64,000 bases of DNA from Alphaproteobacteria bacterium. GTDB taxonomy: Bacteria > Pseudomonadota > Alphaproteobacteria > UBA828. The stretch's first letter is position 1. Every line of letters begins with the position of its first letter. The notes under the pieces were generated by a model. The model saw nothing but the letters and a program-made list of their open reading frames with translations. It did not search any database and had not been told where the DNA came from. Below are positions 4,770-39,912 of this stretch, piece by piece. Made by a program: the position numbers and the translations under genes. The DNA lies in assembly GCA_965214705.1 (NCBI GenBank), contig CBDCCI010000002.1:416001-480000 (forward strand), given 5' to 3'.

Positions 4770-5197
4770 CCGAGGCGGAGGGGAGCGAAGAACAGGCGGC
4801 GGTGAAAATCGCAGCGCTCACCCGGCTGAAGTCGATCGGCGAGAACGAAGCGACGGTGCTCGTCCACGAAATCTTCTACCGCCGCTTCCGCAACCGCCGT
4901 GAGCTCGCGAGCTGGGTCGGCCTGACGCCGACCCCCTGGGCGAGCGGCGACACGCAGCGCGACCGGGGGATTGACCGCGACGGTCCGGCATGGATCCGGG
5001 CACAACTCATCCAAATGGCGTGGCGTTGGCTGCGCTATCAGCCCGAGAGCCCTCTCAGCGCGTGGTTCGAGGAGCGCACTGCGGGCTCTCGGGGACGGAT
5101 GCGCAAGGTGATGGTGGCGCTCGCCCGCAAGCTGCTGATCGCGCTCTGGCGGTTCGCCGAGACCGGTCTCGTCCCGACGGGCGCCAAGCTCGTCTGA
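4770..5197 (+). pseudogene. IS110-family transposase C-terminal fragment (copy A)
   Basis: FRNRRELASWVGLTPTPWASG, QMAWRWLRYQPES, VALARKLLIALWRF; start approximate. Confidence 0.85.
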
Positions 5198-5400
5198 TCG
5201 CGAGACCGCGCTGATCCAGACTGGCCGGACGCGGCCAGCGCTGGGCCGGGTGGCGAGTGGCCGAGCCTCTCACGGGCTGAAACACGCCGAGCAGGAGATG
5301 GGCCCCGCCTCCGGAACGCTGCGCCCGCAGCAAGCGGGATCGAGGGATGGTTCCGGCGCACCGCCGTTGAAAGAGAAACCTCCCGGATAAGAGTTGGGTA
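5198..5400 (+). ncRNA. Putative bridge/seekRNA region of IS110 copy A (3'-truncated)
   Basis: Conserved scaffold CGGACGCGGC..GTGGCCG-N9-NGGGCTGAAA..CGCCG-N7-GATGGGCCCCGCCTCCGGAACG..CCGGATAAGAG shared with the three other copies. Confidence 0.65.
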
Positions 5401-6036
5401 CGGGTGCCGAGCGTGGAGGAGGAGGACCGCAAGCGGTTGCTCCGTGAGCGTCGGCGGCTGGTGAAGGAGCGGACGTCGCTGACGAACTCGATCAAGGGGC
5501 TACTCAAGCTGCAGGGGGTCTTCGACTTGGATCCTCGGGCCAAGGAGTTCGAGGAGAAGTTCGCGGACGCGGTGACCGCATACGGCTCACTGTTCCCGCC
5601 GCGGGCGCGTCAGGAGATTCTGCGGCTTGTGGAGCGGCTGTCGCTCGTGCAGCGGCAGATCACGGCAGTCGAGGCCGAGCGGGATGCGGTTGTCCGCCAG
5701 GGCGCCGCTATCCCGGCGCCGGTCGCGCCGCAGCGAAGCGAGGAGCGGGCGGCGGCCAGGATCGCGACGTTGGCCCAGCTGAAGGGGATCGGCGCGAACG
5801 ACGCGATGCTGCTTGAGCACGAGATCTTCTACCGCGACTTCGGAAACCGCCGTGAGCTTGCGAGCTGGGTCGGGTTGACGCCGACCCCATGGTCGAGCGG
5901 GGACATGCAACGCGACCAGGGGATCGACCGCGACGGTCCGGCCTGGATCCGTGCCCTCCTCGTCCAAATGGCGTGGCGCTGGTTGCGCCATCAACCCGAC
6001 AGCGCGCTTAGCAAGTGGTTCGATGAGCGCACCGCC
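5401..6036 (+). pseudogene. IS110 transposase copy B, first part (5'-truncated, interrupted by the transposon at 6037)
   Basis: RVPSVEEEDRKRLLRERRRL..KWFDERTA; the frame resumes exactly at 10595 (GARGRIRRVMIV). Confidence 0.88.
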
Positions 6037-12039: not shown

Positions 12040-12447
12040 TCATGCCTTTTTCCCTGCGGCAGCGTCGTCGATACGCATGGACGTGCCGTGCAGCTCGATG
12101 CGGATGGCACCATGGACGAGGCGGTCGAGGATGGCGTCGGCGACCGTGGGATCGTTGAGCTGGCGGTGCCAATCGGCCACCGGCAACTGGCTGGTGACGA
12201 TCACCGAGCGCCGGCCGAAGCGGTCGTCGAGGATTTCGAGGAGATCGCGCGCGCGAGCCGCATCGATGGGCGCGATGCCCCAGTCGTCGAGGATCAGCAC
12301 CTCGATGCGGGCGAGGTCGCGGTAGAGCTTCGGGATCGTGCCCTCGCCATGGGCGATGCGCAGCTCGGTGAGCAGCCTGGGCACGCGGTGGTACTGGGCG
12401 ATGTGGCCCTCGAGGCACGCCTTGTGGCCAAGGGCACAGGAGATCCA
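12040..12447 (-). pseudogene. istB: istB ATPase, 3' part
   Basis: ISCALGHKAC, LILDDWG, LLEILDDR, TSQLP..W, ADAILDRL, IELHGTSMR. Confidence 0.9.
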
Positions 12448-12554
12448 GATACCATGAGCACGGTGGCATCGAATCGCGTCTGGCAGTTAGAGAAGCTCGG
12501 AGAGAAGGCCAGCACCTTCTCTCCGAGCGGAATCGTCAACAACGGAGTGGACGG

Positions 12555-13751
12555 ATGTCGGATGGTCCAGACACGACCGCGCTGACAGGCGCAAGTAGTA
12601 GCACGATTTATGTCGCGGTGGAGATCAGCCTCAAATCGTGGATTGTGGGCGTGCATTGCCCGGATGCCTCGGGTGGCAGCATCAGCATCCACACACTGGC
12701 TGCTGCCGACACGGCGGGACTGTTGGATCTCGTCGGGTCGGTGCGGGAACGGGTGGCGAGGGAGCTCGGCGCCCGTCCTCGGGTGATGCTGACCTACGAG
12801 GCGGGCTACGAGGGGTTCTGGCTGGCCCGCGATATCGAGCGCCGTGACGCGGAGATCGATATCTTCATGAACGATCCGGCGAGCCTGCGGGTGAACCGGC
12901 GCGCCAAGAAGAAAAAGACCGACCGCATCGACGCGAGGAGAATGGTTCGGGCTCTGAAGGCATGGGACCAAGGCGATTCGGAGGCCATGTCCTGGGTGCG
13001 CGTGCCCGACGTGGACCGGGAGGACGCCAAGCGCCTGCTGCGCGAGAGGGACACGCTGATCAGCGAGCGTACCCGCGTCAACAACCGGATCAAAGGGCTC
13101 TTGCAGTTGCACGGCATCTTCGATCTGGCGCCGCGCAAGCCGGACTTCCTCGAACGCCTCGCGGCCGCGCGGACGGGCTATGGGGCGCCGTTGCCGCCGC
13201 GGGCGCGTGCGGAGATCGAGAGGGCGGTGCGGATGCTTCGCCTGGTTGAGGACCATATCGAGATGATCGAGGCCGAGAAGAAGGCCCTGCTGAAGGCTGG
13301 CCGGAAAACCCAGGACGCGACCGACGGTGACGGGACGGCGATGATCGCGGCGCTTACGCGCATCCACGGCATCGGCCTCAATGACGCCACACTGCTGGCT
13401 GGCGAGGTGTTCTATCGGGACTTCCGCAATCGCCGGGAGTTGGGCAGCTGGGCCGGGTTGACGTCGGTGCCGTGGGCGAGCGGAGATGTCGACCACGATC
13501 TTGGCATCAGCAAGGCCGGCCCCTCGCATGTCAGGAAGCACATGATCCAGATGGCCTGGCGCTGGTTGAAACTGCAACCGGAAAGCGCGATCACGAAGTG
13601 GTTCCATGCCTACGTCGCCAGGGATGCCGGTGGCGGGAGGGACCGGCGAGCGAGGAAGCGGGCGATCGTGGGGGTCGCGCGCAAGCTGCTGATCGCGCTG
13701 TGGCGCTATGCCACCCAGGGACTGGTGCCCGAGGGCGCCATCGTCTCCTGA
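12555..13751 (+). CDS. IS110-family RuvC-like (DEDD) recombinase/transposase, 398 aa
   Basis: YVAVEIS, YEAGYEGFW, KTDRIDA, GLTSVPWASG, VGVARKLLIALW. Confidence 0.93.
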   Translation: MSDGPDTTALTGASSSTIYVAVEISLKSWIVGVHCPDASGGSISIHTLAAADTAGLLDLVGSVRERVARELGARPRVMLTYEAGYEGFWLARDIERRDAEIDIFMNDPASLRVNRRAKKKKTDRIDARRMVRALKAWDQGDSEAMSWVRVPDVDREDAKRLLRERDTLISERTRVNNRIKGLLQLHGIFDLAPRKPDFLERLAAARTGYGAPLPPRARAEIERAVRMLRLVEDHIEMIEAEKKALLKAGRKTQDATDGDGTAMIAALTRIHGIGLNDATLLAGEVFYRDFRNRRELGSWAGLTSVPWASGDVDHDLGISKAGPSHVRKHMIQMAWRWLKLQPESAITKWFHAYVARDAGGGRDRRARKRAIVGVARKLLIALWRYATQGLVPEGAIVS

Positions 13752-14096
13752 GGACAGCAGCCGAACGAACAGGAGAATACAGGAGGTTCCGACGTGGTCG
13801 GACGCGGCCGCGGAGGATGCCGGGCAAGGCGTGTGACCGGGCAAGAGTTGGGTCGCCGCTTGGCACCGTTCTACAGATGGGTCCCGCCTCCCGGAACGTC
13901 GTTACCGCTTGGATGCGGTATTGGGGTCACGGAGCCGGCAAGCGCCGGAGTTCCGAACCGGATAAGAGCTGAGCAGCGTGACGAATCGCTGCGTGGGAAG
14001 GACGTTCTGCCTGGCCATCAACCGCGGACTCGAAGGGGAGAACAGGAATGCCATTGACGTAGATGAAGCCGGGCCTTGCGGAGAGAGCTCATAAGA
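13752..14096 (+). ncRNA. Putative bridge/seekRNA region of IS110 copy C
   Basis: CGGGCAAGAGTTGG (13838-13851) is the reverse complement of the reconstituted target CCAACTCTTGCCCG; GGTAT and ATAAGAG segments match the element ends; RNA boundaries unknown. Confidence 0.8.
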
Positions 14097-14450
14097 ACTC
14101 TTGCCCGTGCCGCACGGTCCGGTGATCAGGATGTTGGCGCCGTTGCGGACCCAGGCGCAGTCTGCGAGGCCGAGCACGAGACTGCGGTCGAGGCCGCGCG
14201 GACGGCTCAGGTTGATATCCTCGAAGCAGGCGTCCTGATGGCGCAGCTGCGCCCTCTTGAGGCGCCGCTGCAGGGCCCTGGAGCGGCGCTCGGCGATCTC
14301 GCGATCGATCAGCAGCGCGAGCCGATCCTCGAAGGGCATGTCGTCGAGGTCGTTGCGCGCCACCTGCTCGAGGAAGGCGGCGTGCATGCCTGGCAGGCGC
14401 AGCGAGGCGATGCGCTCGGCCAGCGGGTGGGAGACGGGGTTTTCGGTCAT
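14097..14450 (-). pseudogene. istB: istB ATPase, 5' part
   Basis: LRLPGM, FEDRLALLIDRE, RGLDRS, ITGPCGTGKS; ATG overlaps the istA stop. Confidence 0.9.
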
Positions 14451-15979
14451 CGGTAGGCCTCCGGTCCTCTGATGTTGGAATGATCGATGGGCATGGTCTC
14501 GGGTTCCTGCTCGGCGGCGGCGCGGTCGGCGCCGGTGCGCAGGATGTTCTCGAGCCCGCGGTAGCTCCGCGTGCCGAGCTCGAGCGCGTAGCGGCAGGCG
14601 CCGTCGAAGCGGTCCTGCTCGTAGCTCTTGGCCAGCCGGAGGACGCCGTAGCAGGCACGGAAGCCGAACTCCGGATTGTTCTGCCGCTTCATGAGCGCGA
14701 CGATGTAGGCGTGGACATGGGGCCCGATATCGCGCGCGTTCTTCTCCAGCTGGGCGCGGGTGGCCTCGACGCCGGCGCGTTGGTGCGCCTTCGGTTTGTG
14801 CTCTTCGACGGTGGTGGCGCGGCCCCTGGCTGAGCTGCGGATATGGCTGGCGACGTGCCGGCCCCGGAGGAAGACGTCGATCAGGTTGTCGCGCAGGCGG
14901 ACGTCGACCTCCTTGCCGATGAGCTCGTGGGGCACCGAGTAGAAGTGGTAATCGATGGCGATGTGATAATCGCGGTGGACCGTGTTCTTGCGCCACACGG
15001 TGTGCTGCCAGCGCCGTTCCGGCAGCGGCTTCATGTGGGGGCGGTCGACGCTCTCGAAGCGGCCGTAGCGGTTCTCGCCGGTGCCGTCGGCATAGGGCCG
15101 GCTGTTGATCTTCCTGACCTGGGCGGCGATCGCGCGGTTGGCCGATGGCAGATCATGGAAGACGCGCTTGCGCAGGGGCGCGAGAATCCAGCGCTCGCCC
15201 TGGAGCACGCCGTTCTCGACCAGGGCTTTGTCGCGCGGCTTCTTCACGCGCGCCGGGAAGCCCTGAACGTCATAGTGTTCGAGCAGATCGGCGTAGGTCT
15301 CGTTGAGGACCGGCTCGTAGCGCGAGGGCTTGATCACCGCCGGCTTGATGTTGTCGGGCACCACGACCTGCGGCACGCAGCCCATATCCTTGAAGCAGCG
15401 CACGTGCGAGGCGCACCAGTCCTCGATCTTCTGGCTGAGCGTCGCCTCGGCGTAGAGCCGCCCCGAGACGCCCATCGAGGCTACGAACACCTGCGCCTCG
15501 TGCTCGGCCCCGTCGATCATGATCGGGATCGTCATGCCGGCGTAATCGACGAACAGCCTCTCGCCGGGACGGCGGTTCTGGCGCATCGTCGCGTCCCGGC
15601 GCGGCCGCCACTCCCGGAAGCGGCGGCACCAGGTCGGATAGCTCATGCCGCCGGGATGGGTCTCGCGCCATTCCTCCCACAGCAGTTTCAGGGTCACGCC
15701 CTGCTCGGACAGGTCCGTCTCGACCTTCGCCCAGTCCACCTCCTGCTGCGGCGCGGCTTGCGTGGGCGCCGGAAACAGCGCCGCCTCCAGCGCCTCCTCG
15801 GCCATGTCGCCGGCTTCCGGCCAACTCAACCCGGACGCCGCGAACCGCTCCAGGACCGACGCCACCGAGCGTCGCGCCATACCGCAGTGGGTTGCGATCA
15901 CGCGGGCGCTGCGTCCCTCCTCGAAATGGAAACCAAGAACCTTCTTCACCTTTCTCATCGGCAACCTTCCCCGTGCCAT
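14447..15979 (-). CDS. istA: IS21 transposase IstA
   Basis: TLKLLWEE, PGERLFVDYAG, VVPDNIK, PARVKKPRDKALVE, HFYSVP. Confidence 0.93.
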   Translation of the reverse strand: MARGRLPMRKVKKVLGFHFEEGRSARVIATHCGMARRSVASVLERFAASGLSWPEAGDMAEEALEAALFPAPTQAAPQQEVDWAKVETDLSEQGVTLKLLWEEWRETHPGGMSYPTWCRRFREWRPRRDATMRQNRRPGERLFVDYAGMTIPIMIDGAEHEAQVFVASMGVSGRLYAEATLSQKIEDWCASHVRCFKDMGCVPQVVVPDNIKPAVIKPSRYEPVLNETYADLLEHYDVQGFPARVKKPRDKALVENGVLQGERWILAPLRKRVFHDLPSANRAIAAQVRKINSRPYADGTGENRYGRFESVDRPHMKPLPERRWQHTVWRKNTVHRDYHIAIDYHFYSVPHELIGKEVDVRLRDNLIDVFLRGRHVASHIRSSARGRATTVEEHKPKAHQRAGVEATRAQLEKNARDIGPHVHAYIVALMKRQNNPEFGFRACYGVLRLAKSYEQDRFDGACRYALELGTRSYRGLENILRTGADRAAAEQEPETMPIDHSNIRGPEAYR

Positions 15980-16057
15980 CCCAGCCCCCCTCGGATGAGT
16001 CGCGAAATCCGACGGGTAGGACGGCGCTCTGAGTCGCACCAAAAGCCGCCGCCCCGA

Positions 16058-38444: not shown

Positions 38445-39413
38445 GACCGAGAGGTGCGCGTCCTGTGCTGCTACGAGGGCTTCTGGCTGGCTCGCTGGCT
38501 GGAACAGAAGATGTCCATCGAGACGGTGGTGCTCGATCCGGCGAGCCTGTTGGTGAACCGGAAGGCGAAGCAGCGCAAGACGGATCGGATCGATGCGAAG
38601 AAGATGGTGCGCGCCCTTCTCGCCCATGACCGGGGTGACGCCGCAGTGCTGAGCCGTGTGCGGGTTCCGAGCGTCGAGGAGGAGGATCGCAAGCGGCTGC
38701 TTCGCGAGCGTCGGCGCCTGGTGAAGGAGCGGACCTCGCTGACCAACTCGATCAAGGGGCTGCTGAAACTGCACGGCATCTTCCACTTGAACCCTCGTCT
38801 CAAAGCCTTTGAGGCGCAGTTCGCCGAGTTGATGACCGCGTGCGGCTCGCCGCTCCCGCCGCTAGCACGGCAGGAGATCGAGCGGCTCAAAGAGCGACTG
38901 TCCCTCGTGGAGCGGCAGATCGCAGAGGTCGAGGCCGAGCGAGATGGAGTCGCGAAGACGGGTGCGGAGTTCTCGATCGCGGACGCGCCGGAAGGCAGCA
39001 ACGAACAGGCGGCGGCGAAGATTGCAACGCTGACCCGGCTGAAGGGGATCGGTGAGAACGACGCGACTGTGCTCACCCATGAGATCTTCTACCGCGGCTT
39101 CCGCAATCGCCGCGAGCTCGCGGCCTGGGTCGGCGTGACGCCCGCGCCTTGGGCGAGCGGGAACACTCAGCGGGACCAGGGGATCGGCCGAGATGGCCCC
39201 GGCTGGATCCGGCAGCAGCTCATCCAAATGGCCTGGCGATGGTTGCAACATCAGCCCGAGAGCGCGCTCTCGATATGGTTTGAAGATCGCACTGCAGGAG
39301 CGCGAGGGCGGATACGCCGGGTGATGATCGTCGCTCTCGCCCGGAAGCTGCTGATCGCTCTCTGGCGGTTCTCCGAAACCGGTCTCGTGCCGACAGGCGC
39401 CAAGCTTGTCTGA
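38445..39413 (+). pseudogene. IS110 transposase copy D, 5'-truncated, with YEAGYEG collapsed to YEG
   Basis: KTDRIDAKK, RVPSVEEED, GVTPAPWASG, ALARKLLIALW. Confidence 0.88.
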
Positions 39414-39750
39414 CCGCGAGACCTCATCATTCCAGTGCAGTCGGACGCGGCTGGCACTGGGCCGGGTGGCGAGTGACCGGGTATTCGCTGGGCTGAAAGA
39501 CGCCGTAAATCAGAGTGGTCCCGCCTCCGGAACGCTGCGCCCGCAGCAAGCGGGATTGGGGGACGGATCCGGCACACCCTTGCCGGCAACCGCCCGGATA
39601 AGAGCTTGGTATGCGCACTTGAGGCGCGACCGGTGCAAGAAGCGTTCGACCCGGTGGCGAAAGCGACTAGCGATCCTGCCAACTCAGAGGAGGCGAGGCA
39701 TGTGATAGCCAGCGCTAGCCTTCTGACTTGACCCAGACAGCCCCATAAGA
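39414..39750 (+). ncRNA. Putative bridge/seekRNA region and right end of IS110 copy D
   Basis: Same scaffold; ends CATAAGA like copy C; segment TATTCGCT (39482-39489) is 7/8 complementary to the flank AGCAAATA (39750-39757). Confidence 0.72.
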
Positions 39751-39912
39751 GCAAATAAGCGCACTATTCGACAGTCATCAACACCGAGTGCAAACTGAGT
39801 CCCCGAACCTGTTCTTCAATTCGCAACCAACTACCGCTCCAAGAGCGATATTGTAAGACGGCAATTGACCTATCTACACTCTTTCGCGCGTGGCGCTCAT
39901 TTTCGCCTACAT

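What the first reader, a model, noticed from the sequence alone, without database searches (positions are those of the whole stretch)
12448..14107. Intact IS1111-type element whose 3' non-coding region carries a 14/14 match to its own insertion site (bridge/seekRNA)
Seen: removing 12448-14096 restores istB (GGC AAG AGT TGG ATC TCC = GKSWIS). The reconstituted target on the + strand reads ..GATCCAACTCTTGCCCG. At 13838-13851 the element's downstream non-coding region reads CGGGCAAGAGTTGG, the exact reverse complement of CCAACTCTTGCCCG; the central 9 nt fall in a segment that is hypervariable between paralogs, and the outer bases are scaffold. Further downstream, GGTAT (complement of left-end ATACC) and ATAAGAG (predicted circle junction CATAAGA|GATACC) look like donor guides. 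Established: IS110/IS1111 recombinases are RNA-guided. Inference: this is a complete recombinase + RNA + donor + target set readable from one locus. Caveat: the second variable segment (TTCTACA) matches the left flank (AGATCCA) poorly.
Basis: partly seen in the sequence, partly recalled or inferred. Interest (0 to 1): 0.88.

Follow-up and report, generated by a model that had tools for sequence, protein, structure and literature searches.

The report
RNA-guided insertion sequence inside istB
This is an intact jumping gene of the already known RNA-guided (bridge RNA / seekRNA) kind that has landed in another jumping gene, and the short guide segments that aim it can be read directly from its own sequence.

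Summary
Window 12448-14096 is a 1649-nt IS110-family element inserted without duplication into the Walker-A codons of an IS21 istB gene. The empty site exists in the same genome and, for this very copy, in contigs of two public runs. CGGGCAAGAGTTGG (13838-13851) is the exact complement of the rebuilt target.

Comparison with own-genome paralogs and external homologs (45 sequences aligned) shows a target-binding internal loop. Two stems with compensatory changes enclose a hypervariable T loop (13839-13849) and B loop (13868-13878). Across 21 guide families both loops covary with the flanks (0 of 20000 shuffles). GGTAT and ATAAGAG covary with the left and right element ends.

Three corrections:
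- Only about 10 of the 14 matched bases are programmable; the outer ones are invariant scaffold.
- The same guide sits in 19 other copies that occupy a different site, in an IS91-family transposase gene, with a T match of 9/11 and a B match of 6/8. For istB the B match is 4/8, which is chance level.
- Membership of the IS1111 subgroup is only partly shown.

No RNA was demonstrated.

The parts
12448..14096 (+). Whole element, 1649 nt (GATACC...CATAAGA); simple insertion, boundary ambiguous by one A
   Evidence: empty site in the genome; contig joint that skips 1649 nt.
12454..12459 (+). Left subterminal inverted repeat ATGAGC, 6 nt inside the left end
   Evidence: Read. The pair of repeats covaries in homologs (ATGAGG/CCTCAT, ATGGGG/CCCCAT). 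It is 6/6 complementary in 26 of 37 element types.
12495..12528 (+). Perfect 14-bp hairpin in the 5' leader, upstream of the transposase start; role unknown
   Evidence: inverted repeat I11.
12555..13751 (+). Transposase/recombinase gene, 398 aa, intact
   Evidence: NF033542 'IS110 family RNA-guided transposase', 174.5 bits against a cut-off of 140. PF01548 and PF02371. Aligns full length with 4 paralogs, with S309-G310 invariant. S309-G310 aligns to the SG of the ISCro4 transposase, PDB 9t56.
13828..13838 (+). 5' strands of outer stems P1a (GGCG, 13828-31) and P1b (GACC, 13835-38)
   Evidence: They pair with 13885-88 and 13880-83. Four of these pairs show changes on both sides in 9 to 14 sequences each.
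13839..13849 (+). T loop GGGCAAGAGTT: guide complementary to the top strand of A + right flank ACTCTTGCCC
   Evidence: 11/11 for istB and 9/11 for the IS91-family site. Family-wide covariation.
13850..13867 (+). Inner stem-loop P2 between the two guide strands
   Evidence: Three pairs, one with 12 double changes.
13868..13878 (+). B loop GTTCTACAGAT: guide with the sense of the left flank plus GAT, the first 3 nt of the left end
   Evidence: 4/8 for istB and 6/8 for the IS91-family site. Family-wide covariation.
13880..13888 (+). 3' strands of P1b (GGTC) and P1a (CGCC)
13891..13961 (+). Putative donor-binding multiloop, closed by CCGG 13891-94 with CCGG 13958-61; it holds hairpins H1 (13904-19) and H2 (13935-48)
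   Evidence: Closing stem predicted (no double changes; 96.7% of cells paired). H1 has 3 pairs with double changes. H2 was read by eye and was not counted.
13917..13921 (+). D1 GGTAT: complementary to left-end bases 2-6 (ATACC)
   Evidence: Its middle base is complementary to the 4th left-end base in 31 of 34 homologs with an identifiable left end. The segment overlaps the 3' strand of H1.
13962..13968 (+). D2 ATAAGAG: same sense as the last 6 nt of the right end plus the first G of the left end (the circle junction)
   Evidence: Identical to the right-end terminal 7-mer in 38 of 46 element types. All four minority variants follow the right end.
14087..14092 (+). Right subterminal inverted repeat GCTCAT
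12040..12447 (-). 3' part of the interrupted istB (IS21-family helper ATPase)
   Evidence: PF01695, 1.6e-31.
14097..14460 (-). 5' part of the interrupted istB up to the Walker-A codons (approximate upstream limit); istA follows at 14447-16042

Best explanation
The element is an autonomous IS110-family insertion sequence with the IS1111-like layout: a short left end, a long 3' non-coding region and short subterminal inverted repeats.

Inferred mechanism. The 3' non-coding region is transcribed in the sense of the transposase gene and folds into a bridge/seekRNA with two parts.

- **Target-binding internal loop.** It lies between stems P1 and P2. Its 5' strand (T loop, 13839-49) pairs with the top strand of the right half of the target. 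Its 3' strand (B loop, 13868-78) pairs with the bottom strand of the left half.
- **Donor-binding multiloop.** D1 (GGTAT) pairs with the top strand of the left end. D2 (ATAAGAG) pairs with the bottom strand of the right end at the junction of the excised circle.

The DEDD/serine recombinase (398 aa, Ser309) then exchanges strands, giving a simple insertion without duplication.

History of this copy. It came from a sister copy at C3:550809, which is identical apart from a 13-nt indel. It entered istB because the site matches the T loop perfectly, although it matches the B loop no better than chance. The same RNA has placed at least 19 copies in the zinc-finger codons of an IS91-family transposase gene, where both loops match imperfectly (9/11 and 6/8).

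What is shown and what is inferred. Shown: the anatomy, the empty and filled sites, the structural covariation, and the covariation of guides with flanks and with ends. Inferred: that the guide acts as RNA, that it binds the transposase, and the order of strand exchange.
For: - **Protein.** NF033542 scores 174.5 bits, above its cut-off. Both Pfam domains are present.
- **Empty and filled sites.**
- **T loop.** 11/11 in register with the junction. Chance gave 1 of 5000 shuffles.
- **Structure.** RNAalifold finds P1a, P1b, P2 and the closing stem unprompted. 96.3% of cells are paired, against 28-54% when partners are slid. There are 70 double-change cells, against 19.6 +/- 3.4 (0 of 500 shuffles). 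G-U pairs occur on the + strand only in the transposase sense.
- **Target guides across 21 guide families.** The T loop matches its own site at a mean of 7.76, against 5.01 +/- 1.08 for other families' sites. The B loop scores 5.76 of 8, against 3.04 +/- 1.21. Both: 0 of 20000 permutations reach the observed sum.
- **Donor guides.** D1 complementary in 31 of 34; D2 identical in 38 of 46.
- **Published mechanism.** The mechanism and guide order agree with PMC11187229 (sections 6, 9, 10, 13 read) and PMC11208160 (passages on IS1111 read).
Against: - No transcript of this locus was shown. Two metatranscriptome runs hold only contigs 90-95% alike, from relatives, and DNA carry-over cannot be excluded.
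- No sigma-70-like promoter or intrinsic terminator was found in 12400-14150.
- No Rfam family matches the region.
- The B loop does not match the istB left flank better than chance.
- The single-sequence fold of the non-coding region is not unusually stable (z = -0.91).
- One paralog family (B) has a T loop that matches its right flank only 5/11.
- D1 overlaps the 3' strand of hairpin H1, so its covariation with the left end is confounded with stem covariation.
- Many of the 21 guide families are related, so the permutation counts overstate independence.
Confidence: 0.85

Rival explanations
1. The element is RNA-guided as above, but the istB insertion is an off-target accident. The true (selected) target would be the IS91-family zinc-finger site, and the perfect T-loop match to istB would be partly luck. 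On this reading the locus is not a cognate guide-target pair.
For: - 19 of the 20 copies that carry this guide sit in the IS91-family site (16 full-length and 3 split copies).
- Three sequence subtypes (99, 97 and 92% alike) and three flank variants show several independent hits.
- The B loop fits IS91 (6/8) but not istB (4/8).
- A review's account of Durrant et al. says most IS621 off-targets have one or two mismatches (PMC13604230, passages read).
Against: - The T loop is perfect for istB and has an internal A-C mismatch for IS91.
- The T loop has stayed unchanged in copies that differ by 8% elsewhere, so it is under constraint without being perfect for IS91.
- Occupancy is 1 of 2 istB sites against 19 of 87 IS91 sites.
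- The two readings differ only in which site is called cognate.
Confidence: 0.45
2. The guide segments act as single-stranded DNA of the element itself and not as RNA. Target choice would work like the transposon-end DNA guides of IS200/IS605.
For: Sequence covariation alone cannot tell RNA from top-strand DNA. No transcript was shown.
Against: - The protein is a member of the family whose members were shown experimentally to use RNA (PMC11187229, PMC11208160).
- The guides sit 130-260 nt inside the element in a long structured scaffold, not at the cleavage sites.
Confidence: 0.04
3. The 14/14 match is a coincidence, or a scar copied from the target, and has no role in targeting.
For: One of 5000 shuffles reached 14 nt. 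Four of the 14 bases are invariant scaffold.
Against: - The match is in the same register as the matches of 20 other guide families.
- The guide is present in copies that never saw istB, so it is not a scar.
Confidence: 0.01

Closest known systems
IS1111-type elements with seekRNA (ISEc11, ISPa11, ISKpn4, ISPst6; Siddiquee et al. 2024, PMC11187229)
   Same: - DEDD-type transposase with PF02371.
- Long non-coding region downstream of the gene.
- Subterminal inverted repeats.
- Two short target matches, the one complementary to the top strand lying 5' of the one complementary to the bottom strand.
- The two matches meet at the insertion point.
- Simple insertion into a repeated, specific site.
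   Different: - The transposase is 398 aa, against 330-350 aa stated for the IS1111 family (section 6).
- The inverted repeat is 6 bp here and 8 bp in relatives. The published range is 7-17 bp (PMC11208160).
- Relatedness to the IS1111 transposase itself was not tested.
- The closest named relative in plasmid records is ISRel9, at 38% identity.
- Donor guides are visible here. The paper's short seekRNA was described through its target matches only.
IS621 / ISCro4 bridge RNA (IS110 group; Durrant et al. 2024, PMC11208160; PDB 9t56)
   Same: - An internal loop between two stems whose two strands read the two halves of the target on opposite DNA strands.
- A second region that reads the donor ends.
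- A conserved Ser-Gly in the C-terminal domain.
   Different: - The RNA is encoded 3' of the gene, not 5'.
- The guide order is reversed.
- The donor guides lie in a multiloop rather than a simple internal loop, as Durrant et al. predicted for many IS1111 orthologues.
- Only the C-terminal half is detectably similar to a solved structure (E = 3.3e-4). The N-terminal 200 aa found nothing.
IS4321/IS5075 and other IS1111-family members that target mobile-element sequences (titles seen in the reference list of PMC11208160; papers not read)
   Same: The element aims at a sequence carried by other mobile elements, so insertion costs the host nothing.
   Different: Here the targets are coding motifs inside transposase or helper genes (IS91 zinc finger, IstB Walker A), not terminal inverted repeats, REP or attC sites.

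Membership tests
IS110 family (RNA-guided DEDD transposases) | Transposase matches the curated family model above its cut-off | tested here: met
   NF033542 at 174.5 bits against a cut-off of 140, residues 33-389. PF01548 at 31.1 bits (cut-off 29) and PF02371 at 45.8 bits (cut-off 21.3).
IS110 family (RNA-guided DEDD transposases) | Conserved Ser-Gly of the C-terminal domain in a G..P....SG context | tested here: met
   S309-G310 is invariant in 5 paralogs and aligns with the SG of ISCro4. Here the motif reads GLTSVPWASG; the 52%-identical paralogs read GLTPTPWASG.
IS110 family (RNA-guided DEDD transposases) | DEDD catalytic tetrad in a RuvC-like N-terminal domain | tested here: inconclusive
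   E82, D123 and D126 are invariant in motifs YEAGY and KTDRIDA. Assigning them to the tetrad is recalled, not computed. The first acidic residue appears to be Glu23 (VAVEIS), not Asp. The N-terminal 200 aa found no solved relative. No structure was predicted.
IS110 family (RNA-guided DEDD transposases) | Insertion without target duplication at a specific sequence | tested here: met
   Empty and filled sites were compared for istB, the IS91-family site and paralog family C.
IS1111 subgroup | Longer non-coding region downstream of the transposase gene | tested here: met
   345 nt at the 3' side (13752-14096) against 107 nt at the 5' side (12448-12554).
IS1111 subgroup | Subterminal inverted repeats of sufficient length (7-17 bp in PMC11208160) | tested here: inconclusive
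   6 bp here (ATGAGC/GCTCAT), 8 bp in paralog families B and C. The repeat pair covaries and is perfect in 26 of 37 element types.
IS1111 subgroup | Transposase related over its full length to that of IS1111; length 330-350 aa | not tested
   No IS1111 reference sequence was at hand. The length is 398 aa, outside the stated range.
IS1111 subgroup | Top-strand-complementary guide lies 5' of the bottom-strand-complementary guide | tested here: met
   T loop at 13839-49 precedes B loop at 13868-78.
Bridge RNA / seekRNA | Conserved secondary structure supported by compensatory changes | tested here: met
Bridge RNA / seekRNA | Variable loop segments that covary with both target flanks | tested here: met
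   0 of 20000 permutations for T and for B. For this copy alone, T is 11/11 and B is 4/8, which is chance level.
Bridge RNA / seekRNA | Segments that match the donor ends | tested here: met
   D1 in 31 of 34; D2 in 38 of 46.
Bridge RNA / seekRNA | The RNA is made and binds the transposase | not testable with these tools
   Only contigs of 90-95% alike relatives were found in two metatranscriptome runs. That is not proof of transcription.
Bridge RNA / seekRNA | Match to a curated RNA family | tested here: not met
   No relevant Rfam 15 match in 12300-14300 at E up to 10.

The most novel reading that the evidence does not exclude
In this clade the right-flank (T) guide would largely decide where the element lands, and the left-flank (B) guide would be only loosely required. 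One natural bridge RNA would then serve two unrelated targets.

The clade may also be specialised as an RNA-guided parasite of parasites. In this genome every guide family whose site could be named sits inside a gene of another insertion sequence and inactivates it:
- IS91-family transposase
- two different IS21 istB genes
- an ISAs1-family transposase
- an IS110-family transposase
Probability: 0.3. Interest if true: 0.6.

Novelty: new member of a known kind. Interest (0 to 1): 0.38.

Why it matters
The mechanism itself has been known since 2024, so the finding does not open a new category.

Its value is as a clean natural data set:
- an intact element with its empty site;
- about 20 paralogs in one genome;
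- 80 fetched homologous loci, yielding 21 guide families in which all four guide segments (two for the target, two for the donor) can be read and checked by covariation.

This gives a ready rule set for an uncharacterised clade with a longer recombinase. It lends natural support to RNA-guided donor recognition in elements with a 3' RNA. It also offers a natural case of one guide serving two sites, which bears on the off-target rules of bridge recombinases.

Tried and rejected
- **Rfam.** A scan of 12300-14300 at E up to 10 gave only chance hits.
- **Single-sequence fold.** The fold of the non-coding region is no more stable than shuffles (z = -0.91) and puts the T loop in a hairpin. I rejected that fold because homologs lack that pairing and support the internal-loop model.
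- **Promoter and terminator scan.** Nothing useful in the non-coding region.
- **Solved structures.** The N-terminal 200 aa found nothing.
- **Second target match in hairpin H2.** The region 13936-53 is 78% complementary to the right flank (I17). It does not covary with the T loops of the other families (read by eye), so I treat it as chance.
- **Core dinucleotide as in IS621.**
  - Family C sites show a 2-nt overlap, AG.
  - In this copy the target has AA, the left junction has AG and the right junction has AA. This fits either a blunt join or a mismatched core.
  - I could not decide between the two.
- **RNA runs X19 and X20.** They hold only related sequences (90-95% alike) as contigs. I draw no conclusion on expression from them, nor from the uncovered bins.
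- **Paralog at C3:483685.** Its site, compared with an intact paralogous gene, is one A short. Unexplained.
- **Not seen.** Supplementary files of the papers were not seen; the target logos and the ISfinder classification in the supplements of PMC11187229 and PMC11208160 may already list this clade.
Full report
**What is there.**
- Window 12448-14096 is a 1649-nt element on the + strand.
- It carries one intact 398-aa gene (12555-13751).
- The gene product matches NCBIfam NF033542, 'IS110 family RNA-guided transposase', at 174.5 bits against a cut-off of 140. It also matches Pfam PF01548 and PF02371.
- The element interrupts an IS21-family istB on the minus strand. The 3' fragment (12040-12384) is PF01695, and istA follows at 14447-16042.

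**The empty site.**
- The genome holds a second, uninterrupted copy of this IS21 element at C1:~621468. It reads GGAGATCCAACTCTTGCCCGTGCC and encodes a complete IstB (PF01695 4.9e-65; NF038214).
- The insertion is therefore simple, without duplication, and the boundary is ambiguous by one A.
- Contigs of two public runs (X1, X5) join 12446 to 14096 and show no difference to the window's flanks. The C1 paralog differs from those flanks at four positions.
- So an empty allele of this very copy exists, and the insertion is young or reversible.
- The element is identical to the copy at C3:550809 apart from a 13-nt indel. That copy is the likely source.

**The match.**
- CGGGCAAGAGTTGG at 13838-13851 is the exact complement of the target across the junction.
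- A junction-spanning match of this length arose in 1 of 5000 dinucleotide shuffles of the non-coding region.

**Copies in the genome.** BLAST finds the following:
- 18 full-length copies, at least 86% alike;
- three copies split by other insertions;
- three further fragments.

Seventeen of the 18 full-length copies and all three split copies carry exactly the same two variable segments. Of these 20 copies:
- one is in istB;
- 19 are at one position in the zinc-finger codons of an IS91-family transposase gene, CCGCTCTTCA|ACTCCTGCCGC (NF033538 at 382 bits).

There are 68 further empty copies of that site. Three sequence subtypes of the element and three variants of the host flank show that this site was hit several times independently.

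The 86%-alike copy at C3:483685 has different variable segments. It sits near the 3' end of another IstB gene.

**Structure.**
- I collected four more-distant paralog families from the genome (about 52% protein identity) and 80 loci from other genomes. Most of these are alphaproteobacterial metagenome bins; one Defluviicoccus bin is 86% identical.
- Forty-five distinct non-coding regions align well except in two short segments.
- RNAalifold, without guidance, predicts two outer stems, an inner stem and a closing CCGG:CCGG stem. Five pairs carry compensatory changes.
- I then counted the named structure of 20 pairs:
  - 96.3% of cells pair, against 28-54% when partners are slid;
  - 70 cells have changes on both sides, against 19.6 +/- 3.4 in shuffles;
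  - 0 of 500 shuffles reach the observed value.
- The two hypervariable segments are the two strands of the internal loop between the outer and inner stems. They are the T loop (13839-13849) and the B loop (13868-13878). This is the geometry of a target-binding loop.

**Guide and flank covariation.**
- Simple patterns located the loops, the left end and the right end in the 14 own-genome and 80 external sequences. I kept only sequences in which both ends were found with enough flank. After removing duplicates, 49 element/site combinations remained, with 21 distinct T loops and 21 distinct B loops. I did not tally the number dropped.
- The reverse complement of the T loop matches the right flank at the junction with a mean of 7.76 of 11. 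It matches the sites of other families with a mean of 5.01 +/- 1.08.
- The B loop matches the last 8 bases of the left flank with a mean of 5.76, against 3.04 +/- 1.21 for other families' sites.
- In both cases 0 of 20000 permutations reach the observed sum. Related families are not independent, so these numbers overstate the case, but the effect is large.
- Scores for this guide: T 11/11 and B 4/8 at istB; T 9/11 and B 6/8 at the IS91-family site.
- One paralog family (B) matches its left flank 7/8 but its right flank only 5/11.

**Donor guides.**
- The 7-mer after the closing stem (ATAAGAG, 13962-68) equals the terminal 7-mer of the right end in 38 of 46 element types. The minority variants follow the right end: ATAAAAG 11 of 12, ATACAAG 5 of 5, ATAGGAG 2 of 2, ATATAAG 1 of 1.
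- Five of the eight misses differ only at the seventh base, which in those copies comes from the target. This copy is one of them. Its seventh base G equals the first base of the left end, as expected if the RNA reads the circle junction.
- The middle base of GGTAT (13917-21) is complementary to the fourth base of the left end in 31 of 34 homologs. This segment overlaps a hairpin strand, so the signal is partly confounded.
- The last three bases of the B loop (GAT) equal the first three of the left end in most families.

**What it is like.**
- The layout and the order of guides agree with the IS1111-type seekRNA. I read sections 6, 9, 10 and 13 and the abstract of PMC11187229.
- They also agree with the prediction that IS1111 orthologues hold donor-binding bases in a multiloop. 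I read the passages on IS1111 in PMC11208160.
- A 2026 review (PMC13604230, passages read) confirms this as the current picture.
- The clade differs in three ways:
  - a longer protein (398 aa);
  - a short inverted repeat;
  - an N-terminal domain too divergent for sequence detection against solved structures.
- Whether it belongs to the IS1111 branch proper was not tested.

**What is not shown.**
- No transcript of this locus.
- No promoter or terminator.
- No Rfam family.
- Two metatranscriptome runs hold only contigs of relatives.

**Verdict.**
- The element is a new member of a known kind.
- The points worth keeping:
  - the fully readable four-guide code;
  - the natural use of one guide at two unrelated sites;
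  - every nameable target in this genome lies in a gene of another insertion sequence.

Noticed in passing
G000 whole genome; example L115 (C1:5300-7800): An IS91-family element is present in about 87 copies carrying the same zinc-finger target sequence: 68 empty and 19 occupied. This is a very large expansion for one genome.
   Followed up: partly
G000 C3:1762715-1763960 (L028), C3:526358-527533 (L030): Paralog family B sits in an ISAs1-family transposase gene (NF033564, 1.7e-14 on the 3' fragment). Its B loop GGGCAAGAGAT is nearly the same sequence as this element's T loop. Both read a GGCAAGAG (Gly-Lys-Ser) codon string, but from opposite sides. Its own T loop matches the right flank only 5/11.
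   Followed up: partly
G000 C1:2642217-2643410 (L031) and two sister copies: Paralog family C is inserted in the C-terminal domain (PF02371) of another IS110-family transposase gene. An empty site at C3:~3041030 shows a 2-nt overlap (AG) at the junction.
   Followed up: partly
G000 C1:1873054-1874867: A full copy is followed directly by a partial copy that starts at element position 1485, inside hairpin H2. The IS91-family right flank follows that. It may be a tandem or aberrant recombination product; unexplained.
   Followed up: no
G000 C3:483685-485334 (L019): Compared with an intact paralogous IstB gene (C1, about 49.8 kb), the flanks of this copy are one A short of the uninterrupted reading frame.
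   Followed up: no
window 12615-12626 (protein residues 21-24): Where IS110-family proteins usually have the first catalytic Asp (recalled), all five aligned paralogs have Glu (VAVEIS / VAIEVS).
   Followed up: no
window 12495-12528: A perfect 14-bp inverted repeat with a 6-nt loop lies in the leader, 27 nt upstream of the transposase start.
   Followed up: no
window 38472-39900 and 4808-6025: Two further degenerate or truncated relatives of the element lie in the window (families D and E). Their target-binding loops are still recognisable (39459-39644 and 5243-5428).
   Followed up: partly
L073-L100 (one Paracoccaceae chromosome record): One relative is present in at least 28 copies at many different sites. 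These share the right-flank match (7-10 of 11 in all but one site) but have very different left flanks (3-8 of 10).
   Followed up: partly
L116 (Azospirillum brasilense plasmid NZ_CP059451.1, 400665-402591): An unrelated IS110-family transposase gene (24% identity) overlaps the 3' end of an annotated istB. Insertion of IS110-family elements into istB may be recurrent.
   Followed up: no
G000 C3:550809-552470: The sister copy carries a 13-nt insertion (AAACGGAAAAAGA) in the distal non-coding region, which all other copies lack.
   Followed up: no
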